A DNA stretch of 64,000 nt from Escherichia phage UE-S1. The stretch lies in sequence record ON568341.1; one strand, given 5' to 3'. Of the stretch, positions 26,936 to 63,133 are shown piece after piece (position 1 is the stretch's first letter; every line of letters begins with the position of its first letter). Position numbers and translations under genes: made by a program. Below the pieces are notes generated by a model. That model saw only the letters and a list, made by a program, of their open reading frames with translations. It did not search any database and was not told the origin of the DNA.

Positions 26936-27250
26936 ATGAAAAACTTATTCAGTGTTCAGTACGTTCCAGGTGAAATTAGTTTATTGTATCTCTTTGACCA
27001 TGATAATTCATTATTACTAGTAGTGAAGAAATGCCAAGCTAGTTCGTTTGTTGAATACATTCACGATAATGAATATATACCTGATTTTTTAGAGTGTGAT
27101 TATCACGATGAACATGAATCATTTATTTTCCAGGAATCGCTAGTATGGGATAAGTCGATTAACTTTTTTACGTTAATTGAATTACAAAAGCAGGTGAAAT
27201 ATCATTGGGATTACTTAATTACCCAAGACTACATAGAGATAGAAATATAA
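26936..27250 (+). CDS. FamB paralog
   Basis: motif ESFIFQESLVWD; ATG 26936 just after upstream stop. Confidence 0.55.
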   Translation: MKNLFSVQYVPGEISLLYLFDHDNSLLLVVKKCQASSFVEYIHDNEYIPDFLECDYHDEHESFIFQESLVWDKSINFFTLIELQKQVKYHWDYLITQDYIEIEI

Positions 27251-27558
27251 TGACTAAAAATGAATTTGATTCACTTTGTACGGTTTATAATTCATTGACA
27301 GCAATACCTGACTTTATTAATTATATTTCAGCTTTAAATCACATTATGCATAGTTTTGAACAATCATTTGAAGAGAAATATGCTGGAAGAAAAGTTCTAT
27401 GTCATATGACAATGTACTTAGGAGATGGTGAGCCTTACACTACAAGTACTACATGTGAAATAAAAAAATATAATATATTATTGGGAACTATAGAATTCAC
27501 AGTATCCAATGGCGGTAGTTATATGTACTTTAGAGATGGAGTGGTTGAATTATTATGA
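27250..27558 (+). CDS. hypothetical protein
   Basis: TAATG overlap; no FamB motif. Confidence 0.45.
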   Translation: MTKNEFDSLCTVYNSLTAIPDFINYISALNHIMHSFEQSFEEKYAGRKVLCHMTMYLGDGEPYTTSTTCEIKKYNILLGTIEFTVSNGGSYMYFRDGVVELL

Positions 27559-46405: not shown

Positions 46406-46435
46406 GACAAAATAGAAGTTAATGATATAATGTGA

Positions 46436-46463
46436 GGTGACAGTATATACTGTCACCTTTTTT
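46436..46463 (+). terminator. rho-independent terminator
   Basis: GGTGACAGTAT / ATACTGTCACC stem followed by TTTTTT. Confidence 0.7.
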
Positions 46464-47698: not shown

Positions 47699-48220
47699 AT
47701 GTCGAAGAAGGATACTTCGAATAAACATTCAGTACATTTCAGTACTGGAAAAGATAACTGGACAACCCCAAAAGATTTTTTTGAAGATTTAGATGAGTTA
47801 TGGGGATTTACACTTGATGCTGCTTGTGTAGATGAGACTGCATTGTGTGATAATTTTTTCACTCCAGAAGATGATTCACTGTCACAGGATTGGGGAAATA
47901 ATATAGTTTGGTTGAATCCACCATATAGTGACTTAAAAACATGGTTATCTAAAGCTGTAGATGCATATAATAACGGAGCAACTGTAGTTATTCTTGTACC
48001 CTCAAGAACCGATACAATTGCTTTTCAGGATTATGCTGCTAAAATATGTGATTGTATTTGTTTTATTAAGGGAAGATTGCGATTTGGTATACCAGAAGAA
48101 CCCGATAAGAAAACTGATTCAGCACCATTTCCTTCGTGTCTGATAGTTCTGGATAAGTACTTAACCACTGCTAAAATCAATTGTCTTAAATCTCTCGGAT
48201 TGGTGATGAAGAATTTATGA
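47699..48220 (+). CDS. dam: DNA N6-adenine methyltransferase, phage Dam type
   Basis: catalytic NPPY motif (WLNPPYSD) and overall resemblance to small phage Dam methylases; 173 aa. Confidence 0.75.
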   Translation: MSKKDTSNKHSVHFSTGKDNWTTPKDFFEDLDELWGFTLDAACVDETALCDNFFTPEDDSLSQDWGNNIVWLNPPYSDLKTWLSKAVDAYNNGATVVILVPSRTDTIAFQDYAAKICDCICFIKGRLRFGIPEEPDKKTDSAPFPSCLIVLDKYLTTAKINCLKSLGLVMKNL

Positions 48221-48750
48221 AAGAAACATGTATATTATCATTTATGAGATGTAACCCAGTCCACAATGGACATGGTTTAGTTTTTGAAAAGGCCAAAACA
48301 TTACAAGAACAGTACAATGCTGATTTAAAAATTTATCTAAGCACTAGTACTGACAATATAAAAAACCCACTACCACCTGAACTAAAAATGTATTATACAG
48401 AGGGATTCTATCCTTCAGTGCAAGAGAACATCTACACAGAGGACAATCTATTTGATATAATGAGAGAACTGGATGGAAAGTACTTAGATGTTCTCTTCAT
48501 ATGTGGTTCTGACCGTATTGATTCTTTTCAGAAAACCCTTGACACTTACAATGGGAAGTTGTATAATTTTTGTAATATAAAAGTAATTCAAGCAGGTATT
48601 GACCGCCAATCAAGTCGATATAGCTCAACACAAATGCGTAAGTTTGCCAAAAATGAAGATTTTGATAGTTTTCGTGAGTTTTTGCCTGGAAATGACGAGA
48701 ACTTAAAAATTCAATTATTTGAAGATGTTATAAAATACATGAGGAAATAA
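48217..48750 (+). CDS. HxGH-motif nucleotidyltransferase (cytidylyltransferase superfamily, NMN adenylyltransferase-like)
   Basis: N-terminal FMRCNPVHNGH matches the (T/H)xGH nucleotidyltransferase signature; ATGA overlap with dam. Confidence 0.5.
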   Translation: MKETCILSFMRCNPVHNGHGLVFEKAKTLQEQYNADLKIYLSTSTDNIKNPLPPELKMYYTEGFYPSVQENIYTEDNLFDIMRELDGKYLDVLFICGSDRIDSFQKTLDTYNGKLYNFCNIKVIQAGIDRQSSRYSSTQMRKFAKNEDFDSFREFLPGNDENLKIQLFEDVIKYMRK

Positions 48751-48752
48751 TT

Positions 48753-49046
48753 ATGTCAGTACTGTTCAAAACTAATCCAGTACTTTGGGAACAAAATGAA
48801 CAATCAGGATTTCGTTCCATCCATGTTGAATACAAAGGTAATACAGTAGTTGCAATTATTGCTAACAAAACTCTAGGAAAATGGACCGCACAGGTTGTTC
48901 CTATGGGCTATTCTTATACATCTGATGAGGTTCAATTTTTAGCTGAACTTTATCGTCAAGTTCCTTTTATTATTAATGTGTTAGAAGGCAATGATACATT
49001 ATCACATGAAGATGTGATTGATTTTCTTGGAAACTTACATGTGTGA
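48753..49046 (+). CDS. hypothetical protein (97 aa)
   Basis: ORF track. Confidence 0.5.
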   Translation: MSVLFKTNPVLWEQNEQSGFRSIHVEYKGNTVVAIIANKTLGKWTAQVVPMGYSYTSDEVQFLAELYRQVPFIINVLEGNDTLSHEDVIDFLGNLHV

Positions 49047-49326
49047 TGAAATAAATCTTACAGGATATTTTTTACAAGAATCTATGATTAAATTTAGTGA
49101 ACATTTCCCAGTACTGGATGGTATCGAAATGTGGCATGTCAAACCACTGTTCCACACTTTCAGTAAAGAGCACAAAATGTTATTGACTGAGGCGAGTAAA
49201 TCAAATAACATATGTGAAATCAAAATTGGTGTAAATGTCTATAAAGGGATGGTTATCTTTTTTGACAATAACAGCAACTACTTTTATATTGTTAAGGAGC
49301 ATTACGTTGACAAATACAAATACTAA
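49039..49326 (+). CDS. hypothetical protein (95 aa)
   Basis: ATG 49039 overlapping upstream stop. Confidence 0.45.
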   Translation: MCDEINLTGYFLQESMIKFSEHFPVLDGIEMWHVKPLFHTFSKEHKMLLTEASKSNNICEIKIGVNVYKGMVIFFDNNSNYFYIVKEHYVDKYKY

Positions 49327-49915
49327 TACATACTTCCGTTATCTTCGCTTAGGTCTTTCCCTGCGACCGATCCGTGGAAAGTGCGATTCACTCGCGGACC
49401 TTGACTATGCATATGCATTACATCATGAAGGTGTACAGTATGTATTGGGTGATTATGGTGAATTTGAAGAAACAAATGACAGTACTGGAATTAATGCTGG
49501 TGTAGATAATCTCAACAACATTGCAAACAGTTCTCGTCATGATATTGTATTACAAATCCAGAACTTTATTGAGCAACACACAGGAAAACGTGTTTGGTGC
49601 TATGTCGGAACTGATGCACAAATGTCTATTTCATTCGGTAATGATGATGGATATGTCGCACAGCTAATTATGGATTTTGAATCTGAAGAGAAGTTTTTAG
49701 AATTTAAAGAGAAAATCATCAAATCACTCGTTGATATGGGTGTCCCCGAAAATAAAATGCCAGAAGTTCAAAATATTGATGAATTTGTTTTGATTCCATC
49801 TGATGAGAAATATGATGCAATGTTTACTGCTCTTGATATTCCTGGAGTTATTGTGGAGTACTTTGATGATGGTGATGATAGTATCTATATAGATCTAGAT
49901 GACGACGATGAATAA
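49235..49915 (+). CDS. hypothetical acidic protein; start uncertain
   Basis: 226-aa ORF with DDGDDSIYIDLDDDDE tail; first 92 nt overlap previous gene; no in-frame ATG after 49326. Confidence 0.4.
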   Translation: MSIKGWLSFLTITATTFILLRSITLTNTNTNTYFRYLRLGLSLRPIRGKCDSLADLDYAYALHHEGVQYVLGDYGEFEETNDSTGINAGVDNLNNIANSSRHDIVLQIQNFIEQHTGKRVWCYVGTDAQMSISFGNDDGYVAQLIMDFESEEKFLEFKEKIIKSLVDMGVPENKMPEVQNIDEFVLIPSDEKYDAMFTALDIPGVIVEYFDDGDDSIYIDLDDDDE

Positions 49916-49920
49916 TATAT

Positions 49921-49947
49921 AGCCCGACATAAGTTCGGGCTATTTTT
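49921..49947 (+). terminator. rho-independent terminator
   Basis: AGCCCGA / TCGGGCT stem followed by ATTTTTG. Confidence 0.65.
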
Positions 49948-49959
49948 GTAAGGGGATAT

Positions 49960-50235
49960 ATGAATTATAAAGTTCTACAATATACATACAGTGTTTTGTT
50001 TGATTTACATCACAATGGAAGATATCTCAATACAATACGAGAAAACACATTTACTCATATGTTATGGATTGATTACTTAGAAACGATTCGTGCATATTTT
50101 GTTAATACTGAGATAATCATTCGTGGTAAAAAACAGAAGATTCAACATGTTAATAGTTATGGTGGTAAATTAACTCTAACATTTACCGATAATAATACTA
50201 ATGAAATGTGTTGTATCGAGTTGGTGAACATATGA
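49960..50235 (+). CDS. FamC small paralog
   Basis: N-terminus MNYKVLQYTYSVLFDL. Confidence 0.55.
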   Translation: MNYKVLQYTYSVLFDLHHNGRYLNTIRENTFTHMLWIDYLETIRAYFVNTEIIIRGKKQKIQHVNSYGGKLTLTFTDNNTNEMCCIELVNI

Positions 50236-50498
50236 ATTATAAAGATTTCCAATTAACATATAAGATTATTCGCAATCTAGCACACAACAATGATAGCCCT
50301 AGTCTAGAAGACACATGCACAGAAATGATCCATACGATTCGTGCAAAGATTGAAGAAAATTTCAGTACTGTTATTATTAATGATGACCATGCAGAATTTT
50401 CTGATATAATCATTAGACGTGATGGTAAAGTTGAGGTTCAGTACTACACTGATTTTGGATTTACAAGTGTACCGTTGGAGATATTCCCTTGGGATTAA
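50232..50498 (+). CDS. FamC small paralog
   Basis: N-terminus MNYKDFQLTYKII; ATGA overlap. Confidence 0.55.
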   Translation: MNYKDFQLTYKIIRNLAHNNDSPSLEDTCTEMIHTIRAKIEENFSTVIINDDHAEFSDIIIRRDGKVEVQYYTDFGFTSVPLEIFPWD

Positions 50499-50800
50499 AT
50501 TTAAATGATATACAATTCACTTATAAGGTACTATATGATTTGTATGATGCATACCTTGTTAGTAACAAAATAGGTTCACATAACCCAACCAAAGAACAAT
50601 CATTTATTGATTTATATATTGAGTACTTAGATTCTATTGAAAACTATCTCAAAAAGAATTACAGTACTTTTATCGATGGAAATGATACATTCGATTTCTA
50701 TGGTGTGCAATCATATGATGGTATAATCCATGTTCAATTTCAGGAAAGAACCGATAGGGAATTTATCGAAATTAAAGTTGTGAAGTTGGTGAATTTATAA
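50489..50800 (+). CDS. FamC small paralog
   Basis: N-terminus LNDIQFTYKVLYDL. Confidence 0.55.
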   Translation: MGLNLNDIQFTYKVLYDLYDAYLVSNKIGSHNPTKEQSFIDLYIEYLDSIENYLKKNYSTFIDGNDTFDFYGVQSYDGIIHVQFQERTDREFIEIKVVKLVNL

Positions 50801-50810
50801 GAGGTTACAT

Positions 50811-51122
50811 ATGTTATTAAATGATATACAATTTACATACAAATTTTTGTATATCCAATTCGCAACGGTTGATGCTGGTCAATATATCTACAGTGAAGTT
50901 TATCGTTCGATATGGATAAAGTTTTTGGATGAATTACATGATTATTACCATGATTTGTGTATAGTTCGTGATAATAAAATATACAAATTCCGCGATATTG
51001 TTAGCCATAGCGGTAAGCTAAGATTGGAATTAAGTACTGATAAGGATGTTGATTGGATTGGTGTAAATTTACTGGAGTTGGAGAATGAAAAACAACTTAA
51101 AGGAAATACAAGTATTTTATAA
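50811..51122 (+). CDS. FamC small paralog
   Basis: N-terminus MLLNDIQFTYKFLY. Confidence 0.55.
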   Translation: MLLNDIQFTYKFLYIQFATVDAGQYIYSEVYRSIWIKFLDELHDYYHDLCIVRDNKIYKFRDIVSHSGKLRLELSTDKDVDWIGVNLLELENEKQLKGNTSIL

Positions 51123-51369
51123 ATTCTTATACTTATCATATGTAAAAGATGAGTATTATGAAAGTGTGTATTATTTTTTATGGCAACATTACCGTACTAT
51201 AGTAAGAGATTTATATATAGGAAAATCTATCATATCCAATGGTGAAAAATGTACCTGTACGGATGTAGTTAGTTTTAATGGTTCTTTAACACTGTGTTTC
51301 AGATGCGATAATAATAGTGGGTCATTTTCATTAAACGTATATCAGTTAGAAGGAATAAATTTTGAATAA
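51085..51369 (+). CDS. FamC small paralog
   Basis: N-terminus LKEIQVFYKFLYL. Confidence 0.5.
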   Translation: MKNNLKEIQVFYKFLYLSYVKDEYYESVYYFLWQHYRTIVRDLYIGKSIISNGEKCTCTDVVSFNGSLTLCFRCDNNSGSFSLNVYQLEGINFE

Positions 51370-51562
51370 ATGTCCATACTGTAACAGTACTCAATTAGCT
51401 CGTTTCCGTTTAGATTCAGACTGGGCGACTGGTGCTGGTGATTTCTTTCCTATTAATGATGATGCGGAATACACCGAAGAACAACTCAAAGATTTTGATA
51501 AATCATGGCGACCTGACATTGAGTGTATTTATTGCCTTAATTGTGAGCGTGTCCATGACTAA
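51362..51562 (+). CDS. putative zinc-ribbon protein (66 aa)
   Basis: CPYCNS ... CIYCLNC (Cx2C-x40-Cx2C). Confidence 0.5.
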   Translation: MNKCPYCNSTQLARFRLDSDWATGAGDFFPINDDAEYTEEQLKDFDKSWRPDIECIYCLNCERVHD

Positions 51563-51818
51563 AGCTGAACTAATAGTTCATACATATAAAATGATATCAA
51601 GTACTGAGTCTTCGTATAGTGAAGATAATCCGGTACTGGATTATTTTGTTGAATTATTGAAAGAGCATTATATTGGTAAATCACTGATTCTCAATAATAT
51701 TAATTTCACGGTAAAGGATGTAGCACCTGGAAAAAACATACTAATAGTATGTGTTACTTCATCTGATAACCCAGTATACCCAATATCAATAATTTTTGAG
51801 ATATTAGGAGATTTATGA
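51555..51818 (+). CDS. hypothetical small protein, FamC-like
   Basis: ATG 51555 overlapping upstream stop; track start 51432 rejected. Confidence 0.45.
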   Translation: MTKAELIVHTYKMISSTESSYSEDNPVLDYFVELLKEHYIGKSLILNNINFTVKDVAPGKNILIVCVTSSDNPVYPISIIFEILGDL

Positions 51819-52105
51819 ATATCATTTTAATGCAGAAAACATATGCTATATTGGTGAAAGATTATTCCATTACTTTCGATTTACAAGAAAGTGCTCTGCA
51901 TAACCTATACAAAAACGTAACACAAGAATACAGAAATATGTTTTCTGACTTAGTAGTAGGAAGGTATTTCAGAACTAGAAAATACCCAAAACTTCAAATA
52001 GTTGATGTTTCTTTTTATTTCAATGGTCATATTACTATTCATAGTTTAGACCAAGATTCAACAACGTACTTAAACTTTTCATTTGATGAGGTAACATTTT
52101 TATGA
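51815..52105 (+). CDS. hypothetical small protein, FamC-like
   Basis: ATGA overlap. Confidence 0.45.
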   Translation: MNIILMQKTYAILVKDYSITFDLQESALHNLYKNVTQEYRNMFSDLVVGRYFRTRKYPKLQIVDVSFYFNGHITIHSLDQDSTTYLNFSFDEVTFL

Positions 52106-52278
52106 GAACAGTATTTTTTATCTGGAGTCTTTTTTCATTGGCAGTACTGACAGTATGTGGGATTTGTTTCCTTTCATCAATTAATACTTGGTATATCAAT
52201 TTACTATTTCCATTTGTCGGTGTTGGTTTAGGGTTTACTTTGCATAGTGTATGTAAGGATTACAATGAGAACAAATGA
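52102..52278 (+). CDS. hypothetical small membrane protein (58 aa)
   Basis: two hydrophobic segments; fills a 160-bp gap; not in track. Confidence 0.3.
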   Translation: MRTVFFIWSLFSLAVLTVCGICFLSSINTWYINLLFPFVGVGLGFTLHSVCKDYNENK

Positions 52279-52543
52279 AGTACTTATTGCTGAAACAATG
52301 AAGATGATTTACAATATCACGTCAGCACAGAATATGCCCTATCCAACTAAGTCTTTATTGAGGACTGTGTATCTGGGGATAGTACAGGAGTACTACAAAT
52401 CCAAGCACCTAAGCATTATTAGTGTTTATCGTGATTATGAAAGGATTCGTATTTTATTCTGGAACAAGAATCGAGTACGTTCTGAATGTGACCTAGTGGA
52501 CTTTAAATTAGAGAATCTTTATTGCTATAAACAGGGACAATAG
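52265..52543 (+). CDS. hypothetical small protein (92 aa)
   Basis: ATG 52265 after AAGGA RBS (track start 52247 is GTG). Confidence 0.45.
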   Translation: MRTNEVLIAETMKMIYNITSAQNMPYPTKSLLRTVYLGIVQEYYKSKHLSIISVYRDYERIRILFWNKNRVRSECDLVDFKLENLYCYKQGQ

Positions 52544-52601
52544 TTTAATTCATGATATAATAATGGGTAAGGAACAATAATTAACACAAGGAGTGTGTGA
52601 A

Positions 52602-53330
52602 ATGCTTGACCGTATCCGTTTCGCTACAGAGATGGCGAATGAATTAAACATGGCAAATTTCCAAATGTTAACATCAGTAATGGCTGAACATGCATGTGCT
52701 TATTCTGTAAGTGGTGTGCAGTGTGGTCAGGAGAATATGTTAGCAGATGTTTATAGTGAAGTGCAAAGTAAGCAATATAGTGTAAAGACATATAAGGATA
52801 AGTTTGTTAGTCTTTATATGAACGAAGATATTGCCGAAGACCGTAAATTCACTGATTTTATTATTGAACGCCGAGTATCAGGTGTATCTAATCCTAATGC
52901 ATCAAGCGAGGAAGTTTTTGCAGAAGTACTGAAAGATATATACGAAAATGAATTAAAAAGTAAGAATCATTACAATGTACGTGAAACTAACACAGTGCTC
53001 TTGGGATATGATGAAGACGAAGAATACTATTATTTTCGTATGACTGAAGTTCCTTTTGAATACAAATCTCCATATACAACTACAGTGAAAGAATTTACTG
53101 AAAAAAGTAAAAACTTCATGAAGCATGAAGGAAATCGTTGTAGTATAAATGGTTATGACGAAAATGGCATTCACATTTATGAATGGGTTCACCCAAATTG
53201 TCAGACATACACTCGTTGCTTGAAAAAACGTTATAATTTAGAAGAGCATGAATCATTCTATTTTAAAGTTAAGAAGCAAGGTTATACTCGCCCCGCCGAT
53301 TCTGAATTGATGGGTATGATATATTTCTAA
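52602..53330 (+). CDS. hypothetical protein (242 aa)
   Basis: ATG 52602 after AAGGAG RBS. Confidence 0.55.
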   Translation: MLDRIRFATEMANELNMANFQMLTSVMAEHACAYSVSGVQCGQENMLADVYSEVQSKQYSVKTYKDKFVSLYMNEDIAEDRKFTDFIIERRVSGVSNPNASSEEVFAEVLKDIYENELKSKNHYNVRETNTVLLGYDEDEEYYYFRMTEVPFEYKSPYTTTVKEFTEKSKNFMKHEGNRCSINGYDENGIHIYEWVHPNCQTYTRCLKKRYNLEEHESFYFKVKKQGYTRPADSELMGMIYF

Positions 53331-53340
53331 GGAAACTTCT

Positions 53341-53622
53341 ATGGATTTTTATCTACACACATGGACATACGAACAATATATTACATTATATCTTGAAATT
53401 ATTAACACAGAACCTAGGTGTGGTTGTTGGTTCGCAGATATCATAAAAGAGTATGCTGACGAGTTCGAGTTTGTGTATCTTGGGTCTGATATATTTGTAA
53501 AAAGTGTAGGTAAAACCGGACGAATCACTGATATAGATTACGACACTGTTAGTGTCAATTTCTATGTTGATTTTCCTGATGCTGGCGTTGATGGTGTATA
53601 TTGTCTTTATGAAATAATTTAA
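53341..53622 (+). CDS. hypothetical small protein
   Basis: ORF track; terminator follows. Confidence 0.5.
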   Translation: MDFYLHTWTYEQYITLYLEIINTEPRCGCWFADIIKEYADEFEFVYLGSDIFVKSVGKTGRITDIDYDTVSVNFYVDFPDAGVDGVYCLYEII

Positions 53623-53630
53623 ATTCTTAG

Positions 53631-53654
53631 GCCAGCGTTTGCTGGTCTTTTTTC
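53631..53654 (+). terminator. rho-independent terminator
   Basis: CCAGC / GCTGG stem followed by TCTTTTTTC. Confidence 0.55.
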
Positions 53655-55242: not shown

Positions 55243-55506
55243 ATGAATATTCAAGATAGATTACAATTACTGTACACACTTGAACAGGCTGCTTATGATC
55301 TTGTTCGAAAAATCTCAGATGAACTACCTAAAGGAACTAAAGTTCGTGTACGTGAGATGAATTATTTTTCTGGAGTAATTGAAGAACAAGTACTAACAGT
55401 GAATAAAGTAACATACTATGAATCTGAGTTGTCTATTCAGTGTGAATCTGATGATGGATTAATATCATATTATGGAACTGATGTAGATATAGAGGTAATA
55501 AAATGA
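55243..55506 (+). CDS. hypothetical small protein
   Basis: ATG 55243 just after upstream stop. Confidence 0.45.
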   Translation: MNIQDRLQLLYTLEQAAYDLVRKISDELPKGTKVRVREMNYFSGVIEEQVLTVNKVTYYESELSIQCESDDGLISYYGTDVDIEVIK

Positions 55507-56645: not shown

Positions 56646-56675
56646 TACTAACTAGCCTAAGCACAAGGAGAAGTG

Positions 56676-56930
56676 ATGGCTAAACCTAAGTATAAAAATG
56701 ACGGTTCCCTTTCTCCAACTGAGTTCAGGAAAATACAACAAGAAATCGATGAATTACAGCACAAACGCTCAATGAAAGGTGTGAAGATAAGTAAGAAGAG
56801 AATCGAGAATACTTTCGGATGTAGTAGTACTGAATATAAGAAGAAAAGGAAACCGAAGGGTGTTAAGCCGAGAATACATGATGTAACTCGCTATACATCA
56901 AAACGTGAAAATAAATTTGATCCACTATAA
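56676..56930 (+). CDS. hypothetical highly basic protein
   Basis: ATG 56676 after AAGGAGAA RBS; Lys/Arg-rich. Confidence 0.5.
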   Translation: MAKPKYKNDGSLSPTEFRKIQQEIDELQHKRSMKGVKISKKRIENTFGCSSTEYKKKRKPKGVKPRIHDVTRYTSKRENKFDPL

Positions 56931-56939
56931 GGAGTTCAT

Positions 56940-57170
56940 ATGAAAGTTGAAGTTCAGCATAGTATTGTTCAAGATATGTCTGTAGTTAAATTTCTTTCAT
57001 TAAAAGATTACTTTAGATGTATCAAGTTCCTAGAAGAATCTCATTTAAAATGGACTCCATTAAAGTACAGTTCATCCAAAGACACTGCTAGTATTCGTTG
57101 TGATGAAGCTGTACTCGTAAAAATCTCTAAAAGATTTGGGATAGGTAAAGTGAATGAGCACAGTAAATGA
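56940..57170 (+). CDS. hypothetical protein (76 aa)
   Basis: RBS AAGGAG. Confidence 0.5.
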   Translation: MKVEVQHSIVQDMSVVKFLSLKDYFRCIKFLEESHLKWTPLKYSSSKDTASIRCDEAVLVKISKRFGIGKVNEHSK

Positions 57171-57408
57171 ACTAAAATACTACAACAAAATTGCGGATAC
57201 GTTTATTACTCATTTATATGAAGAATTCAGTAGTATCCGCAAGGAATATACAGGTAAATGTATTTTATATAGTTCTTATCTTAGTGGAAGAATTGAACGT
57301 GCTTACATTACTAAAGTGAAGTTTTCTGATGATTATCAATTACTATTTGAATTGGATGATTGTTTAGTCATTGAAGCTGATTTAATAGTAGATGTGCTGA
57401 ACAATTGA
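57154..57408 (+). CDS. hypothetical small protein
   Basis: ORF track. Confidence 0.45.
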   Translation: MSTVNELKYYNKIADTFITHLYEEFSSIRKEYTGKCILYSSYLSGRIERAYITKVKFSDDYQLLFELDDCLVIEADLIVDVLNN

Positions 57409-57414
57409 GGACAT

Positions 57415-57729
57415 ATGAATAAAGAACTTGCATATAAGGGTATCGAAAAGCTAAAGTTCGTTGAAAAGGAACTAATAGAATCAGTTGAAACAATGGTTGA
57501 AGATTACGTTTTTGATTTTAAGAAAACATTAATTGGATGTAAAGTCAAATGCTGGGATCATACCATTAGAGAATGGTTCAGTGCTATAATTCTTGATGTT
57601 AAAGTATCTCGAACTGGTATTGGTAACTTAGTAAATGGTGAATGCTTTGTATACACTGAATACAATAACGGTACAAGACACCTTTCAAAAGGATGGCACA
57701 ATCTCGAAGATGTAGAATTCATTGAGTAA
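57415..57729 (+). CDS. hypothetical small protein
   Basis: RBS GAGGA. Confidence 0.5.
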   Translation: MNKELAYKGIEKLKFVEKELIESVETMVEDYVFDFKKTLIGCKVKCWDHTIREWFSAIILDVKVSRTGIGNLVNGECFVYTEYNNGTRHLSKGWHNLEDVEFIE

Positions 57730-58677: not shown

Positions 58678-58706
58678 AAAAGGGATCAATGTATGATCCC
58701 TTTTTC
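58678..58706 (+). terminator. rho-independent terminator
   Basis: AAAGGGATCA / TGATCCCTTT stem plus T-run. Confidence 0.65.
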
Positions 58707-58723
58707 TTTTAAGGTATATTATA

Positions 58724-58900
58724 ATGAATGTAAAAACACAGATGTTATTACAAAAAGAATACTTAGAAAATATAGAAATGTTCTATAGATTGTCTTTATA
58801 CGAAAATAAACATAAAAAATATAACTTTTCTAAACAACTAACCACAAGTACTAATGATTATCTATTTTCATCAATGTTTTATGTGAGAGGTTTATTATAA
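58724..58900 (+). CDS. hypothetical small protein (58 aa)
   Basis: ATG after AAGG; TAATG overlap with next gene; not in track. Confidence 0.3.
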   Translation: MNVKTQMLLQKEYLENIEMFYRLSLYENKHKKYNFSKQLTTSTNDYLFSSMFYVRGLL

Positions 58901-59157
58901 TGGATAAATTTCACACAGATATAACACAGATAGGTAATCTTATCAATAGTCTAATTACTGATTTAGAAGAAAAGTACTTAGGTCGAAATGTATACGTTGA
59001 AATGTATGAAACATATGGTGTTATTGATATGATTTATTACAGTGCATTGAAGTGTGAAATACGTTTAACAGTATGTTTGTTTGAAAAAGATACATTCAAC
59101 AGAAGTACTGCAATTCGTCAGGTTGGTGTAGATGACATTGAATTATATGAGGAATAA
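58900..59157 (+). CDS. hypothetical small protein
   Basis: ORF track. Confidence 0.5.
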   Translation: MDKFHTDITQIGNLINSLITDLEEKYLGRNVYVEMYETYGVIDMIYYSALKCEIRLTVCLFEKDTFNRSTAIRQVGVDDIELYEE

Positions 59158-59411
59158 TGATGTTTGAACAGGACGTAGAGCTATTCAAAAGACATATTGA
59201 ATATTTGACTGTTTTAGAGAATGATTTAACCACAAAATACAAAGGAATTAGAGTCCAGTGTTGGTATGATGACTGGGATTATAAAAGGGAACTTACTATT
59301 GACCGAATTTATTTCAGTGATGGTGTACTGAATGTACATGGTGTAAATGATTTTGGTCATTCATATACATATTCTAATAATGCTAAATTTAAAAGGATCT
59401 GCAATGAATGA
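59157..59411 (+). CDS. hypothetical small protein
   Basis: TAATG overlap. Confidence 0.5.
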   Translation: MMFEQDVELFKRHIEYLTVLENDLTTKYKGIRVQCWYDDWDYKRELTIDRIYFSDGVLNVHGVNDFGHSYTYSNNAKFKRICNE

Positions 59412-59706
59412 ATATTATCATAATTTATTCGATTACATAAAACTAATAGATGATCTTTCTTTTGAATTTCTCAGTACTGAAAAAGTTGATGAACCTCTCT
59501 ATTATGATTGTATTAGTTCACTGTGTTTAGATGAAAAAGAGATATTAGCAAATAACTTACCATCCACGGTCTGTGTAATCAATGGTTCCAAGGCTGTGGT
59601 GTCTGAGGTTAATTTTCATAAATCACTTAATACAATTGTTTACAAGTTCGATAACACTTGGTTTAATCACGTAACTAGTAATATTAAATCTGTGAGATTT
59701 TTATGA
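59404..59706 (+). CDS. hypothetical protein
   Basis: ATG 59404 overlapping upstream stop. Confidence 0.45.
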   Translation: MNEYYHNLFDYIKLIDDLSFEFLSTEKVDEPLYYDCISSLCLDEKEILANNLPSTVCVINGSKAVVSEVNFHKSLNTIVYKFDNTWFNHVTSNIKSVRFL

Positions 59707-59999
59707 ATATAAAAAAATTATTTGAACAAGTAAATTTATTGTACTTGTGTTCAGACGGCTCAGATAAGGAATATAGTGAAGTTTATTTAGAACTATTTAG
59801 AACTGAAATACATCTAATTCGAAGATACCTAATTGATAACAAAACTGAAGTAAAAGTTAGATACCATAATGGTACTTTAAAGAATGGTATAATTATTGGA
59901 TTGATAGTTACAAGAATGTCCAGTAATATTAAAGTTGCAGTAAGATTAATGACTGATGATGGTGTCTACACAATAGAAGCTAATGAGATTATATATTAA
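59703..59999 (+). CDS. hypothetical small protein
   Basis: ATGA overlap. Confidence 0.5.
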   Translation: MNIKKLFEQVNLLYLCSDGSDKEYSEVYLELFRTEIHLIRRYLIDNKTEVKVRYHNGTLKNGIIIGLIVTRMSSNIKVAVRLMTDDGVYTIEANEIIY

Positions 60000-60305
60000 A
60001 TGGATATACAAACATTCAATAAACTAAAGTACTATGATAATGGTTTTGTATTAATAATTAACGAACTTGATAGTATACCATACGAATATCATAATCAAGT
60101 AATGAATATAGTAAAAAATATATGTGAAGAACTAAAAAGTATATTTAAAAATGAATATGTTTATGATTTAGGTAATAATAGAACAAAACTATACATAAAG
60201 AAATTCTGGGGAACACATTGTGGTTTGATGGTCGATTTGGGTTTAAGTTTAGACAATAATTTCGAATCATGTTCATTATATTTGGACGAAATGAGAATCT
60301 CATGA
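60000..60305 (+). CDS. hypothetical protein (101 aa)
   Basis: ORF track. Confidence 0.5.
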   Translation: MDIQTFNKLKYYDNGFVLIINELDSIPYEYHNQVMNIVKNICEELKSIFKNEYVYDLGNNRTKLYIKKFWGTHCGLMVDLGLSLDNNFESCSLYLDEMRIS

Positions 60306-60362: not shown

Positions 60363-60689
60363 GTGAATGGGTCGTTTTTAGAAATACTAGAAAAGACAAC
60401 TGGGATGCTTTCAAGTTCACTAATGCACATTTTCAGTACTAGTAATTTTTACGATTCGCGTGTGTTAGATGTAATTTGTAATAGCTATGTTGAATGTGTG
60501 TCTAATACAATATGTCCATTTAACGCTTATTCAAATGATGGTGTTGAAAAGTTTATTATATCCAAGATTCAATGTGGTTTTGGTGATTGGATAGTTCTAT
60601 GTGAACGTAGTGGTGTGTCTTTATACATCGAAGAAATTGGAAAATTTATATACAAAGGAGTAGAATATGTTAGTCCCAATTATTATTAG
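60363..60689 (+). CDS. hypothetical protein (108 aa)
   Basis: GTG start after AGGAGAGG RBS. Confidence 0.45.
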   Translation: MNGSFLEILEKTTGMLSSSLMHIFSTSNFYDSRVLDVICNSYVECVSNTICPFNAYSNDGVEKFIISKIQCGFGDWIVLCERSGVSLYIEEIGKFIYKGVEYVSPNYY

Positions 60690-61314
60690 TAGTGCATATG
60701 TCATCGGTATTATTATTTCTGGTATGCTTGCATATAACTATAACAGAAGTATTCTAGGTTATGCAGTACTTGGTGCAGTTCTAAGCCCAGTAATTGCAAT
60801 TGGTGTTCTTATCATCTTAGGTGAGAAAAACACAAAATATTTTATTACTGAAGAACTTGATAAAATCACTCCAGCACCGGAGACGGTTATTCCAGAAGTT
60901 GAAGAAGAAGTAAAAGAAGTTGAAGTTCAAATGCAAGTTAAAGTACATAATACACTCGAAGAAACTGATCCTAAAGTTGTGGTGAATGTAGTTCCTGTCG
61001 TTGAAGATGTAAAACCAAAAGCCCAAAGATCCAAAAAAACCACTAAAACACAGAAAAATACTAAAACTGCAAAAAAATCACGTAACACTAAAGGTAAGAA
61101 TAAAGGGAAATCGACGGATGAACAACAACTAGGTGTTCATAACCATACTGCACAAATTACATCGGCAGCGGCAGCGGGGGCAATCGTAACATCACCAATC
61201 TACAACAATGATGATTACAGTGATTATAGTCGTCACAGTAGTTCCCCTTCTGATTCTTGTTCTTATGATAGTTCTAGCTCTGATTCAAGTTCATCTTCTG
61301 GAAGTTGTGATTAA
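60667..61314 (+). CDS. membrane protein with low-complexity charged and Ser-rich tail
   Basis: two hydrophobic helices, then EVEEEVKEVE / KKTTKTQKNTKTAKK / SSSSDSSSSSGSCD. Confidence 0.55.
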   Translation: MLVPIIISSAYVIGIIISGMLAYNYNRSILGYAVLGAVLSPVIAIGVLIILGEKNTKYFITEELDKITPAPETVIPEVEEEVKEVEVQMQVKVHNTLEETDPKVVVNVVPVVEDVKPKAQRSKKTTKTQKNTKTAKKSRNTKGKNKGKSTDEQQLGVHNHTAQITSAAAAGAIVTSPIYNNDDYSDYSRHSSSPSDSCSYDSSSSDSSSSSGSCD

Positions 61315-61643
61315 TGTCAATGAAACCACTAATTCAACATAATATTTTTTATAGTTCATTATTCAAAATACAAGATGATTTTTATCAGACGTTGAGTAAT
61401 GATCTTATAGGTAAAACTGTACGATATTCAGACCAATACATCAAACGTATGACAAGTCAGTATATTGACCCTGAATACGAATACGACATTGAACACATTA
61501 ATCCCAATACTAGAATGAAAATCATTGAGATATTTAAGAATGGGAGAACTATAGGTGCTGAAATTGAGTACTTGAATTGTGATTGTTACATAGATACTGA
61601 GTTGAGTTTAGATTATCTTGTTTTAGTGGATGATGAGGAATAA
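61314..61643 (+). CDS. hypothetical small protein
   Basis: ORF track. Confidence 0.5.
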   Translation: MSMKPLIQHNIFYSSLFKIQDDFYQTLSNDLIGKTVRYSDQYIKRMTSQYIDPEYEYDIEHINPNTRMKIIEIFKNGRTIGAEIEYLNCDCYIDTELSLDYLVLVDDEE

Positions 61644-61645
61644 TT

Positions 61646-61861
61646 ATGATAACATTTTTCGCAATATATGGATTTGTAACATTTGTTACATTTATAACCA
61701 ACTTTTTAGTACTTAATTGGGGTTGTTTTAAAGATGAAATCATGATTGCCATGAATCTCCAAACAGCAGCACTAATGGCTATTATTTGGCCTGTAACGTT
61801 AGTATACCTTTTTATTTCACTTACTCAAGATATTATTAACAAATATAAGAGAAAGAACTAA
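61646..61861 (+). CDS. small membrane protein (71 aa)
   Basis: two hydrophobic segments, basic C-terminus KYKRKN. Confidence 0.5.
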   Translation: MITFFAIYGFVTFVTFITNFLVLNWGCFKDEIMIAMNLQTAALMAIIWPVTLVYLFISLTQDIINKYKRKN

Positions 61862-62118
61862 TGTTCAAAACCGACTTATCACATTTTCGATATCTTAGGT
61901 CTTTGGCTGATGATTTTATAAATGATCTTAAGCCAAAATATATTGGTCAAGAAGTACGATTAATAAACTCCAGAGGGTATGGAAAGTATATTATAACGGA
62001 TATGTATATTAGTGCTGGTGAGTGGTGTTTTAAAATTAACACTTATCTTAAAGATGGTTCTTTTGCTGGAACACAAGTTACTAAACATACTAATATTATA
62101 TGGTTGGAGCAACAATGA
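61861..62118 (+). CDS. hypothetical small protein
   Basis: ORF track. Confidence 0.5.
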   Translation: MFKTDLSHFRYLRSLADDFINDLKPKYIGQEVRLINSRGYGKYIITDMYISAGEWCFKINTYLKDGSFAGTQVTKHTNIIWLEQQ

Positions 62119-62863: not shown

Positions 62864-63133
62864 ATGCATGATGTAGTTAAAAAATATTTGAATGATAGAT
62901 ATATCATGGAAAAATCTATTAATTCTATCCTAAAAGATCATGATAATCAAATACGTGAGATTCTATCAAATAAACTTATTGGTTGTTCAGTTGAGTTCAA
63001 CTACAAAAAGAATGTAGTGAAGATTGGAGTTATTAAACGTGTAGTTGCTGTTTATGACCAAAATGTATATGTTGAAATTGAATATGATGGTAAATTATCA
63101 CAATTAAGTACTGAAGATTTAACATTTTTATAA
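62864..63133 (+). CDS. hypothetical small protein
   Basis: ORF track. Confidence 0.5.
   Translation: MHDVVKKYLNDRYIMEKSINSILKDHDNQIREILSNKLIGCSVEFNYKKNVVKIGVIKRVVAVYDQNVYVEIEYDGKLSQLSTEDLTFL

What the first reader, a model, noticed from the sequence alone, without database searches (positions are those of the whole stretch)
49960..51369. Third tandem paralog family (FamC) and scattered similar small proteins in the enzyme region
Five consecutive ~95-aa genes share an N-terminal (N/D)-I-Q-F-T-Y-K-x-L-Y-(D/L) motif. Further small proteins of similar size and possibly similar pattern (for example at 53341, 55243, 57154, 57415, 58900, 59157, 59703, 61314, 61861, 62864) sit singly between RnlA, Pnk and the phosphatase. 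Paralog expansion is therefore not confined to the two large arrays.
Basis: partly seen in the sequence, partly recalled or inferred. Interest (0 to 1): 0.45.

Follow-up and report, generated by a model that had tools for sequence, protein, structure and literature searches.

The report
Small helix-plus-barrel protein families, jumbo coliphage
A giant E. coli phage carries about seventeen fast-evolving copies of one kind of small protein, a helix packed on a tiny beta-barrel, seven in a row and the rest scattered among RNA-repair genes; their function is unknown.

Summary
The window is an Asteriusvirus jumbo coliphage (PBECO4/121Q/UE-S1 type). The five ORFs at 49960-51369 are a real paralog family, called FamC here. 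The family is larger than reported: 51555-51818 and 51815-52105 also belong, giving seven same-strand genes interrupted by one conserved zinc-ribbon ORF.

A decoy-calibrated all-versus-all profile comparison groups most of the scattered small proteins into a second family, FamD:
- Firm members: 53341, 57415, 58900, 59157, 61314, 61861, plus 27250 upstream.
- Probable members: 55243, 57154, 62864.
- Unsupported: 59703.

AlphaFold models (pLDDT 84 and 87) give both families the same plan: one or two N-terminal helices followed by a five-stranded SH3/Tudor-like barrel. Sequence evidence linking FamC to FamD is weak but specific (P about 2-3e-4), so common ancestry is plausible but unproven.

- There is no Pfam match and no functional PHROG annotation.
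- FamC is confined to Asteriusviruses (23 proteins, four of them repeat-protein artefacts, among 1.84 billion cluster representatives).
- The proteins are mostly acidic, and their orthologues are absent from the phAPEC6 virion proteome.
- The genes evolve faster than the neighbouring enzymes (dN/dS 0.15-0.72 against 0-0.10), vary in copy number and are swapped between related phages.

The likeliest role is diversified intracellular binding modules; that role is inferred and the target is unknown. This is a modestly interesting, undescribed family of a known kind.

The parts
49919..49943 (+). Terminator-like GC-rich hairpin followed by a T-run, immediately upstream of the first FamC gene
   Evidence: 9-bp stem with 5 GC pairs. 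It is a consensus match only, not a tested terminator.
49960..50235 (+). FamC1, 91 aa
   Evidence: (P 1e-19 against the rest of FamC)
50232..50498 (+). FamC2, 88 aa from the ATG at 50232. The ATGA overlaps the FamC1 stop. An upstream GTG at 50208 is probably not the start.
   Evidence: (P 6e-9)
50489..50800 (+). FamC3, 103 aa, with a long loop between helix 1 and helix 2
   Evidence: (P 4e-14)
50811..51122 (+). FamC4, 103 aa; this is the protein that was modelled
   Evidence: pLDDT 84, pTM 0.70; P 6e-22
51085..51369 (+). FamC5, 94 aa; overlaps FamC4 by 38 nt
   Evidence: (P 3e-15)
51362..51562 (+). Zinc-ribbon ORF (CPYC...CIYCLNC), 66 aa, interrupting the array. It is not a family member and is much more conserved than its neighbours.
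   Evidence: no similarity; dN/dS 0.03; 73% aa identity in a Klebsiella relative
51555..51818 (+). FamC6, 87 aa, divergent (start at the internal ATG at 51555)
   Evidence: P 7.6e-6 to the FamC core; against FamC 1.9e-4, against FamD 4.9e-4
51815..52105 (+). FamC7, 96 aa, divergent; ATGA overlap with FamC6
   Evidence: jackhmmer; recovered by the FamC profile in the global database; P 2.4e-5 over 79 columns
53341..53622 (+). FamD member, 93 aa, pI 4.1
   Evidence: network at P<=1e-5; against FamD 3e-4
53629..53648 (+). Terminator-like hairpin that closes the 49960-53622 block
55243..55506 (+). Probable FamD member, 87 aa
   Evidence: 3 of 22 FamD tests at P<=3e-3, best 1e-4; 5e-5 to the Klebsiella L002:11384 cluster. 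Not significant.
57154..57408 (+). Probable FamD member, 84 aa; the gene is absent from SP27, WPEC5 and phAPEC6
   Evidence: 6 of 22 tests; presence/absence
57415..57729 (+). FamD member, 104 aa
   Evidence: (P 7e-8)
58900..59157 (+). FamD member, 85 aa
   Evidence: (P 3e-6)
59157..59411 (+). FamD member, 84 aa
   Evidence: (P 2e-7)
59703..59999 (+).
   Evidence: against FamC 1.3e-3; one hit, 6.5e-4, 46 N-terminal columns
61314..61643 (+). FamD member, 109 aa, with an insertion in the barrel
   Evidence: (P 4e-6)
61861..62118 (+). FamD member, 85 aa; this is the protein that was modelled
   Evidence: pLDDT 87, pTM 0.72; P 6e-9; 2.1e-4 to the FamC core
62864..63133 (+). Probable FamD member, 89 aa
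   Evidence: joins FamD at E<=1e-4 with no decoys; 1.7e-4; 9 of 22 tests
27250..27558 (+). FamD-like ORF, 102 aa, lying inside the upstream large array
   Evidence: network at P<=1e-4

Best explanation
The region encodes two related-looking, lineage-restricted families of small (84-109 aa), mostly acidic, non-virion proteins.

- **FamC:** seven tightly packed same-strand genes at 49960-52105, several with overlapping stop and start codons.
- **FamD:** seven firm and three probable members, scattered singly among the RnlA, Pnk and phosphatase genes.

Both families are predicted to fold as N-terminal alpha-helices (two in FamC, one long helix in FamD) packed against a C-terminal five-stranded SH3/Tudor-like beta-barrel. 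A conserved glycine sits in the turn between strands 2 and 3.

Shown here:
- The families arose by gene duplication, tandem for FamC and dispersed for FamD.
- They keep diversifying under relaxed constraint. Copy number varies, whole alleles are replaced between related phages, and one chimeric gene exists.

Inferred, not shown: the paralogs act inside the infected cell as small binding modules, each recognising a different host or phage macromolecule, probably proteins given the acidic pI, in host takeover or counter-defence. The target is unknown.
For: **Identity of the window**
- It is 96% nt identical to PBECO4, 121Q and SP27.
- One protein is 100% identical to a protein of phage UE-S1.

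**Family structure**
- BLASTP and jackhmmer recover the families.
- Comparing each orthologue group with family super-profiles that exclude it gives clear signals, while the reversed-alignment controls never go below P 0.03.
- The all-versus-all hhsearch covered 197 clusters. Decoy counts were 29 at P<=1e-3, 4 at P<=1e-4 and 0 at P<=1e-5.

**Fold**
- FamC4 model: pLDDT 84, pTM 0.70, with H3-17, H29-46 and then strands.
- FamD 61861 model: pLDDT 87, pTM 0.72, with H2-27 and then five strands.

**FamC-FamD link**
- hhalign gives P 2.9e-4 over 64 columns and P 7e-4 over 66 columns, in the same register.
- There are 3 cross-family edges at P<=1e-3 among 198 tests, against 0 for every pairing that involves the two large arrays (FamA, FamB).
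- That sequence-only register matches the independent DSSP strings at 54 of 64 positions, against 46-69% when the register is shifted.

**Restricted distribution and no annotation**
- There is no Pfam hit, and the PHROGs involved are tiny and of unknown function.
- FamC gives 29 hits among 5.8 billion proteins and 23 (four of them repeat-protein artefacts) among 1.84 billion cluster representatives.
- Copies per relative: 5-7 FamC in Asteriusviruses and 0 in the Klebsiella, Erwinia, Pectobacterium, Serratia and Salmonella relatives.

**Evolution**
- dN/dS against SP27 is 0.15-0.72 for FamC and 0.00-0.10 for RnlA, Pnk, the phosphatase and the nucleotidyltransferase.
- There is a mosaic breakpoint near 51085, and the alleles at 53341 and 57415 are replaced in some relatives.
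- P0026 is a chimeric gene.

**Other properties**
- pI is 4.1-5.8 for most members.
- Stop and start codons overlap as ATGA.
- Orthologues gp361c-gp392c are absent from the 62-protein phAPEC6 virion proteome (PMC7247149).
Against: - No experiment or annotated homologue bears on function. The binding-module role is inference from fold, charge, genomic position and mode of evolution.
- The FamC-FamD relationship is not significant in every alignment (A2 against A4: P 0.029, 28 columns).
- At P<=1e-4 the two networks stay separate.
- Each structure rests on one AlphaFold model built from a shallow alignment of 20-28 sequences.
- The temporal class of the genes is unknown. The sigma70-like matches are no more frequent than in shuffled sequence.
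- dN/dS stays below 1, so positive selection is not demonstrated.
Confidence: 0.6

Rival explanations
1. Only the five-gene (or seven-gene) FamC family is real. The similarity of the scattered small proteins to each other and to FamC is a by-product of AT-rich composition and of generic helix-then-strand patterns in small proteins.
For: - Each scattered protein sits in its own PHROG.
- The profile of the five FamC genes alone finds nothing else at E<1e-3.
- At P<=1e-3 the network merges into one 41-cluster component at about 10% FDR, which could be chaining through false edges.
- A2 against A4 gives only P 0.029.
Against: - The P-values are calibrated on reversed decoys, and FamD holds together at P<=1e-5, where no decoy passes.
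- FamA and FamB, small proteins of the same genome and composition, never join.
- Negative-control small ORFs in the same region give no hits.
- The independent AlphaFold models share their secondary-structure order in the hhalign register.
Confidence: 0.12
2. The proteins are RNA-polymerase-binding modulators. Their barrels would dock on the beta-subunit lobe, as do the Tudor-like domains of CarD/CdnL, Mfd and UvrD/PcrA, to redirect or shut off host transcription.
For: - PcrA Tudor is also hit by the FamD model.
- The genes lie in a non-structural region next to the terminal repeat, a region that authors of related phage genomes suspect to be early (PMC5259590).
Against: - There is no sequence similarity to PF02559 or any other Pfam family.
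- The FamD model's best hits are chromo, PWWP, KOW and R67 DHFR barrels rather than CarD.
- Seventeen paralogs for a single conserved target is hard to rationalise.
Confidence: 0.1
3. They are accessory subunits or specificity factors of the neighbouring RNA-repair and nucleotide enzymes (RnlA, Pnk, phosphatase, Pth2-like hydrolase), which would explain why they are interleaved with them.
For: - FamD members sit singly between RnlA, Pnk and the phosphatase.
- FamD-like proteins occupy similar positions in the Klebsiella and Erwinia relatives.
Against: - The partner enzymes are highly conserved (dN/dS <=0.10), while the small proteins are replaced by 30-40% identical alleles, or lost, between close relatives. 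That pattern is not expected of obligate subunits.
- The small ORFs that are conserved next to RnlA and Pnk in all sampled genera (56673, 56940) are not family members.
Confidence: 0.08
4. They are decaying or spurious ORFs with no function, that is, selfish filler DNA in a jumbo genome.
For: - dN/dS is as high as 0.72 for FamC1 and 0.65 for 60363.
- There is a chimeric fusion in Salmonella phage SD-6_S16.
- 57154 is present in some relatives and absent from others.
Against: - dN/dS is below 1 for every member, and most values are 0.05-0.48.
- The reading frames are intact in dozens of genomes.
- The fold predictions are confident.
- The N-terminal motif and the turn glycine are conserved.
- Starts overlap the preceding stops as ATGA.
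Confidence: 0.05

Closest known systems
CarD/CdnL/TRCF RNAP-interacting domain and PcrA/UvrD C-terminal Tudor-like domains (SH3-like barrels)
   Different: - Sequence identity is 4-14%, with no Pfam PF02559 match.
- The helices precede the barrel rather than follow it.
- These are stand-alone proteins of about 90 aa.
- RNAP binding is untested.
Tudor, chromo, PWWP and KOW barrels and the R67 DHFR barrel
   Different: There is no sequence motif of those families. The aromatic cage was not examined. The resemblance is at fold level only.
Lineage-specific paralog expansions reported in jumbo phages
   Same: [quoted passage not shown]
- CBB has 22 paralogous ORFs (PMC5259590).
- Bacillus phage G has about 35 zinc-ribbon copies (PMC7824862).
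[quoted passage not shown]

FamC and FamD show the same phenomenon: small, same-strand, unannotated genes expanded within one phage lineage.
   Different: None of the papers read describes these two families, their fold or their relationship. FamC is confined to Asteriusviruses.
PHROGs phrog_21004, 32291 and 35943 (FamC) and phrog_31355, 29519, 33398, 29135, 37322, 32812 and 38615 (FamD)
   Same: The window proteins match these profiles end to end (E 1e-41 to 1e-74).
   Different: All are annotated 'unknown function'. They are kept as separate families, so the super-family relations found here are not recorded there.
Multigene families of large eukaryotic DNA viruses that expand and contract under host pressure (poxvirus and ASFV 'genomic accordions')
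   Same: Tandem same-strand paralogs, copy-number differences between close relatives, faster evolution than core genes and recombinant copies. The comparison itself is from general knowledge, not a tool result.
   Different: The virus realm and the protein fold differ. No host-range or immune-evasion phenotype is known here.

Membership tests
FamC (this work; PHROGs 21004/32291/35943) | N-terminal helix carrying the x-[ILF]-Q-x-[TF]-Y-[KS]-x-[LI] motif | tested here: met
   T9 and Y10 are present in at least 90% of sequences in 21- and 28-sequence alignments. The motif is present in the five original genes and in 51815 (MQKTY). It is weak in 51555 (VHTYK).
FamC (this work; PHROGs 21004/32291/35943) | Significant profile similarity to the rest of the family once a protein's own orthologues are removed | tested here: met
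   P is 6e-9 to 6e-22 for the five genes. P is 7.6e-6 for 51555 and 2.4e-5 for 51815 against the FamC core. No decoy reaches 1e-5.
FamD (this work) | One long N-terminal helix ending in (K/E)-(Y/L)-(I/L)-G-(K/R)-x-V, then a barrel; significant profile similarity to the other members | tested here: met
   - G29 is invariant or nearly so in alignments A3 and A4.
- 57415, 58900, 59157, 61314 and 61861 give P 6e-9 to 4e-6, and 53341 gives 3e-4.
- They form a network at P<=1e-4.
- 62864, 57154 and 55243 pass only by multiple weaker hits.
- 59703 is not met.
One superfamily uniting FamC and FamD | Significant sequence-profile similarity between the two families | tested here: inconclusive
   - P is 2.9e-4, 7e-4 and 0.029.
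- There are 3 of 198 cross edges at P<=1e-3, against an expectation of 0.2.
- The networks stay separate at P<=1e-4.
One superfamily uniting FamC and FamD | Same fold and same order of secondary-structure elements | tested here: met
   - Both AlphaFold models show helix, beta1, beta2, G-turn, beta3, beta4, a short helix, then a strand.
- DSSP agreement is 54 of 64 positions in the hhalign register.
CarD_CdnL_TRCF (Pfam PF02559) | Match to the Pfam model at or above its gathering score | tested here: not met
   No such hit even at E<=1 for seven FamC and three FamD proteins.
CarD_CdnL_TRCF (Pfam PF02559) | Tudor-like five-stranded barrel fold | tested here: met
CarD_CdnL_TRCF (Pfam PF02559) | Binding to the RNAP beta-subunit lobe | not testable with these tools
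   Needs pull-down or a co-structure.
KOW (NusG/Spt5, Pfam PF00467) | KOW sequence motif or Pfam match | tested here: not met
Virion structural proteins | Detection in purified particles | tested here: not met
   The phAPEC6 orthologues are gp361c-gp392c. No gp36x-gp39x entry appears in the 62-protein structural proteome table (PMC7247149). This is evidence from a close relative, not from this phage.
Expanding and contracting multigene family | Tandem same-strand paralogs with copy-number differences between close relatives | tested here: met
   There are 7 FamC copies in the window, A4, ph0011 and WPEC5; 5 in Turkey5 and JNE01; and 0 in five other genera. 57154 is present in some relatives and absent from others.
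Expanding and contracting multigene family | Faster evolution than neighbouring core genes, and recombinant copies | tested here: met
   - dN/dS is 0.15-0.72 for FamC against <=0.10 for the enzymes.
- aa identity to ph0011 is 29-77% for FamC against 89-96% for the enzymes.
- There is a mosaic break near 51085.
- P0026 is a chimera.

The most novel reading that the evidence does not exclude
FamC and FamD would together form one phage-specific superfamily of stand-alone 'helix-capped SH3' adaptors. The phage would diversify them by duplication, cassette exchange and change in the loop between helix 1 and helix 2, giving a repertoire of binders, each neutralising or redirecting a different host factor such as RNAP, defence proteins or RNA-damage nucleases. 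This would be a bacterial-virus counterpart of the host-range multigene families of poxviruses and ASFV, placed next to the RNA-repair module because both answer host anticodon-nuclease or abortive-infection defences.
Probability: 0.2. Interest if true: 0.65.

Novelty: new member of a known kind. Interest (0 to 1): 0.35.

Why it matters
Most of the roughly 600 genes of RaK2-like jumbo phages have no annotation. This analysis shows that about 16 of the roughly 41 genes in one 14-kb stretch reduce to one architectural theme, a helix plus an SH3-like barrel, in two families.

That gives the ORFs a structural annotation. It also flags them as the fast-evolving, exchangeable part of an otherwise conserved enzyme region, and it supplies a compact candidate list for host-interaction or anti-defence screens.

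The finding does not change current ideas about jumbo phages, where paralog expansions are already known, and no function has been established.

Tried and rejected
- **Profile of the five FamC genes alone, searched against the window.** Nothing else passed E<1e-3, although the top sub-threshold hits were the neighbouring small ORFs.
- **Pfam and PDB sequence searches with both family profiles.** No meaningful hits.
- **PHROGs.** Only tiny families of unknown function, one per orthologue group.
- **Exhaustive HMMER search with the FamC profile.** The four long hits are artefacts; the two inspected, P0047 and P0056, are repeat proteins (an SprB-like protein and a WD40 protein).
- **Foldseek against viral models.** Only Asteriusvirus proteins pass E<1e-3. 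One RaK2 protein (H6X4R2) is borderline at E 0.014.
- **A first cross-family count was wrong.** My script kept the worst alternative alignment for each pair. It was corrected.
- **hhsearch needed a properly built a3m/cs219 database.** Searches failed before worked.
- **Iterative HMM searches at E<=1e-3 do link FamD to FamC.** One or two decoys also passed that threshold, so I do not rely on this alone.
- **52247/52265-52543, 59404-59706, 60000-60305 and 60363-60689 were tested as possible members.** 52247 (P 5e-4) and 60363 (P 2.5e-3) matched the FamC super-profile, but none of the four has support at cluster level, so all are left out.
- **Literature searches.** No description of these families and no transcriptome for this phage group.
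Full report
**What the window is**

The stretch 49000-53000 is 94-96% identical in DNA to Escherichia phages SP27, PBECO4, 121Q, G17, Sharanji and phAPEC6. These are Asteriusvirus, the RaK2-like group of jumbo myoviruses. The protein at 62864-63133 is 100% identical to UES1_407 of phage UE-S1. All genes discussed are on the + strand and tightly packed. Several have stop and start codons overlapping as ATGA, at 50232, 51815 and 52102.

**Check of the observation**

The five ORFs exist as described.
- The N-terminal motif is exact in two of them and degenerate in the other three.
- Within the window they find each other by BLASTP (E 4e-7 to 3e-4).
- Profiles of their orthologue groups match the rest of the family at P 6e-9 to 6e-22.
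- At the DNA level only 26-31-nt repeats over the start codon and the first ten or so codons remain. The duplications are therefore old, but the 5' ends are held similar.

**Extent of FamC**

jackhmmer was run on the proteins of the window plus nine syntenic loci from related phages. It adds 51815-52105, and a FamC profile recovers that protein's orthologues from the 5.8-billion-protein database.

I then compared 197 BLAST-level clusters, covering 432 small proteins from the window and eleven loci, all against all with hhsearch. Column-reversed alignments served as decoys.
- The P-values are well calibrated. Of 38,750 decoy comparisons, 29 reach P<=1e-3, 4 reach 1e-4 and none reaches 1e-5.
- At P<=1e-5 FamC contains 49960, 50232, 50489, 50811, 51085 and 51555.
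- At P<=1e-4 it also contains 51815.

The array is therefore seven genes, 49960-52105. It is interrupted by a zinc-ribbon ORF (51362-51562) that is unrelated and much more conserved: dN/dS 0.03, and 73% identity even in a Klebsiella relative. Terminator-like hairpins at 49919-49943 and 53629-53648 bracket the block. These are consensus matches only.

**The scattered small proteins**

The same network analysis gives a second family, FamD.
- At P<=1e-5: 53341, 57415, 61314 and 61861.
- At P<=1e-4, additionally: 58900, 59157 and an ORF inside the upstream array, 27250-27558.
- 62864, 57154 and 55243 hit FamD clusters in 9, 6 and 3 of 22 directional tests at P<=3e-3. The expectation is about 0.07 and the matched decoy tests gave none. 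62864 also joins FamD in a decoy-controlled iterative search at E<=1e-4. I call these three probable members.
- 59703 has one weak hit, to the FamC N-terminus (6.5e-4), and is left unassigned.
- Control small ORFs of the same region give nothing. These are 48753, 49018, 51362, 52102, 53667, 56673, 56940, 58724, 61646 and 63144.
- The two big arrays (FamA, FamB) form their own networks and never join.

FamD has one long N-terminal helix ending in a (K/E)-Y-I-G-K-x-V motif. It also occurs in the Klebsiella and Erwinia relatives.

**Fold**

- The AlphaFold2 model of FamC4 used a 28-sequence alignment and scored pLDDT 84 and pTM 0.70. It shows helix 3-17, a variable hairpin or loop, helix 29-46, four main strands, a short helix and two short terminal strands.
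- The model of FamD 61861 used 20 sequences and scored pLDDT 87 and pTM 0.72. It shows helix 2-27 followed by five strands.
  - Six chains appear in both lists.
- The invariant FamC glycine (G68) and its FamD counterpart (G53 of 61861) both lie in the turn between strands 2 and 3.

**Is FamC related to FamD?**

The sequence evidence is weak but specific.
- hhalign of family alignments gives P 2.9e-4 over 64 columns and 7e-4 over 66 columns. With a different alignment pair it gives only 0.029 over 28 columns. The register is the same every time.
- At cluster level there are three cross edges at P<=1e-3 in 198 tests: 61861 to the FamC core at 2.1e-4, and 59157 with 51815 at 2.4e-4 and 4.1e-4. 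The expectation is 0.2. There are none for any pairing involving FamA or FamB.
- The sequence-only register agrees with the two independently predicted DSSP strings at 54 of 64 positions, against 46-69% when the register is shifted.

I conclude that the two families share an architecture and are plausibly homologous, but homology is not proven.

**Distribution and annotation**

- There is no Pfam match, and no sequence match to any solved structure.
- Each orthologue group is a small PHROG of unknown function.
- The exhaustive HMMER scan of 1.84 billion representatives with the FamC profile finds 23 proteins. Four of them are long repeat-protein artefacts; the two I inspected are an SprB-like and a WD40 protein.
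- FamC has 5-7 copies in the Asteriusvirus genomes sampled and in one metagenomic relative. It has none in the Klebsiella, Erwinia, Pectobacterium, Serratia or Salmonella RaK2-like phages.
- A borderline structural match to a RaK2 protein (E 0.014) hints at older roots.

**Mode of evolution**

- Against SP27, FamC genes have dN/dS of 0.15-0.72. RnlA, Pnk, the phosphatase and the nucleotidyltransferase have 0.00-0.10. All values are below 1, so these are real coding genes under relaxed or partly diversifying constraint.
- Against ph0011, FamC proteins are 29-77% identical where the enzymes are 89-96%.
- The window is mosaic. The stretch 51085-52543 is 89-97% identical to phage A4, whereas 49960-51122 is only 27-42% identical to A4.
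- The alleles at 53341 and 57415 are about 40% identical to SP27 but about 90% identical to ph0011 and Turkey5.
- 57154 is missing from SP27, WPEC5 and phAPEC6.
- A protein of Salmonella phage SD-6_S16 (P0026) is an in-frame chimera of FamC2 and FamC3.

**Function**

Nothing experimental is known.
- The proteins are mostly acidic (pI 4.1-5.8). That argues against general nucleic-acid binding.
- No signal peptide or membrane segment is evident by eye in the sequences; no predictor was run.
- Their phAPEC6 orthologues (gp361c-gp392c) are absent from that phage's 62-protein virion proteome (PMC7247149).
- The region lies next to the long terminal repeat reported for relatives (PMC5259590, PMC11895373). 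The CBB authors suspected such regions to be early, but no transcriptome exists for this group.

My best inference, at roughly one in three, is that the paralogs are diversified intracellular binding modules for host takeover or counter-defence. More specific rivals each have some support but remain unlikely: CarD-like RNAP binders, accessory subunits of the RNA-repair enzymes, and functionless ORFs.

**Comparison with what is known, and novelty**

Paralog expansions are a recognised feature of RaK2-like and other jumbo phages (PMC3622015, PMC5259590, PMC7247149, PMC7824862). None of the papers read describes these families. The result is therefore a new, structurally annotated pair of families of a known kind. 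It is a useful annotation and a candidate list rather than a surprise.

**Verdict**

FamC is real and larger than stated. Nine of the ten scattered ORFs form a second family. The link between the two families is architectural and only marginal in sequence.
- Interest: 0.35.

Noticed in passing
window 51362-51562 (+): A 66-aa zinc-ribbon ORF (CPYC...CIYCLNC) sits in the middle of the fast-evolving FamC array. It is itself highly conserved: 95-97% aa identity in Asteriusviruses, 73% in Klebsiella phage RCIP0023, and dN/dS 0.03.
   Followed up: partly
P0026 (Salmonella phage SD-6_S16); corresponds to window 50232-50800: This is an in-frame chimeric gene. FamC2 residues 1-66 are fused to two pieces of FamC3. 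That indicates deletion or recombination between neighbouring paralogs.
   Followed up: partly
window about 51085 and 51085-52543: There is a mosaic breakpoint. Downstream of about 51085 the proteins are 89-97% identical to phage A4 and only 29-59% identical to ph0011. Upstream FamC genes show the opposite pattern (27-42% to A4).
   Followed up: partly
window 53341-53622, 57415-57729, 57154-57408: The 53341 and 57415 proteins are about 40% identical to their positional counterparts in SP27 but about 90% identical to those of ph0011 and Turkey5. The 57154 gene is absent from SP27, WPEC5 and phAPEC6.
   Followed up: partly
window 49958-49988, 50230-50260, 50809-50839; 50501-50526, 50817-50842, 51097-51122: Short direct DNA repeats (26-31 nt, 71-88% identity) occur only at the 5' ends of FamC genes, over the start codon and the first ten or so codons. 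The proteins are only 20-30% identical overall. The cause could be selection on the N-terminal motif, a shared translation-initiation region, or microhomology used for recombination.
   Followed up: no
window 56673-56930 and 56940-57170 (+): Two small ORFs lie between RnlA and Pnk. One is very basic (pI 10.2). Both are conserved across the RaK2-like genera sampled and belong to neither FamC nor FamD. They are candidates for partners of the RNA-repair enzymes.
   Followed up: no
window 27250-27558 (+): A FamD-like ORF (long helix, KYAGRKV motif, strands) lies inside the upstream array of larger paralogs, far from the enzyme region.
   Followed up: partly
window 60667-61314 (+): A 215-aa protein has hydrophobic N-terminal segments, a K/T-rich middle and a serine/aspartate-rich low-complexity tail (SSSPSDSCSYDSSSSDSSSSSGSCD). 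It is poorly conserved between relatives.
   Followed up: no
window 48539-48567 (+): A perfect 12/12 sigma70 consensus (TTGACA-17-TATAAT) lies inside the nucleotidyltransferase gene 48217-48750. An 11/12 match lies at 49262-49290. Overall, promoter-like matches are no more frequent than in shuffled sequence.
   Followed up: no
window 46434-46459, 49919-49943, 53629-53648, 58678-58704 (+): Four strong terminator-like hairpins lie on the coding strand, at gene-block boundaries. In total 14 terminator-like sites were found, against 5.9 +/- 2.8 in shuffled sequence. They suggest that the region is divided into several transcription units.
   Followed up: no
L010 (Logan SRR22590159 contig, 9.3 kb): A metagenomic contig from a more divergent relative keeps the same order (Dam methylase, nucleotidyltransferase, small ORFs, then an array of about 90-aa genes). 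Its FamC copies are strongly diverged.
   Followed up: partly
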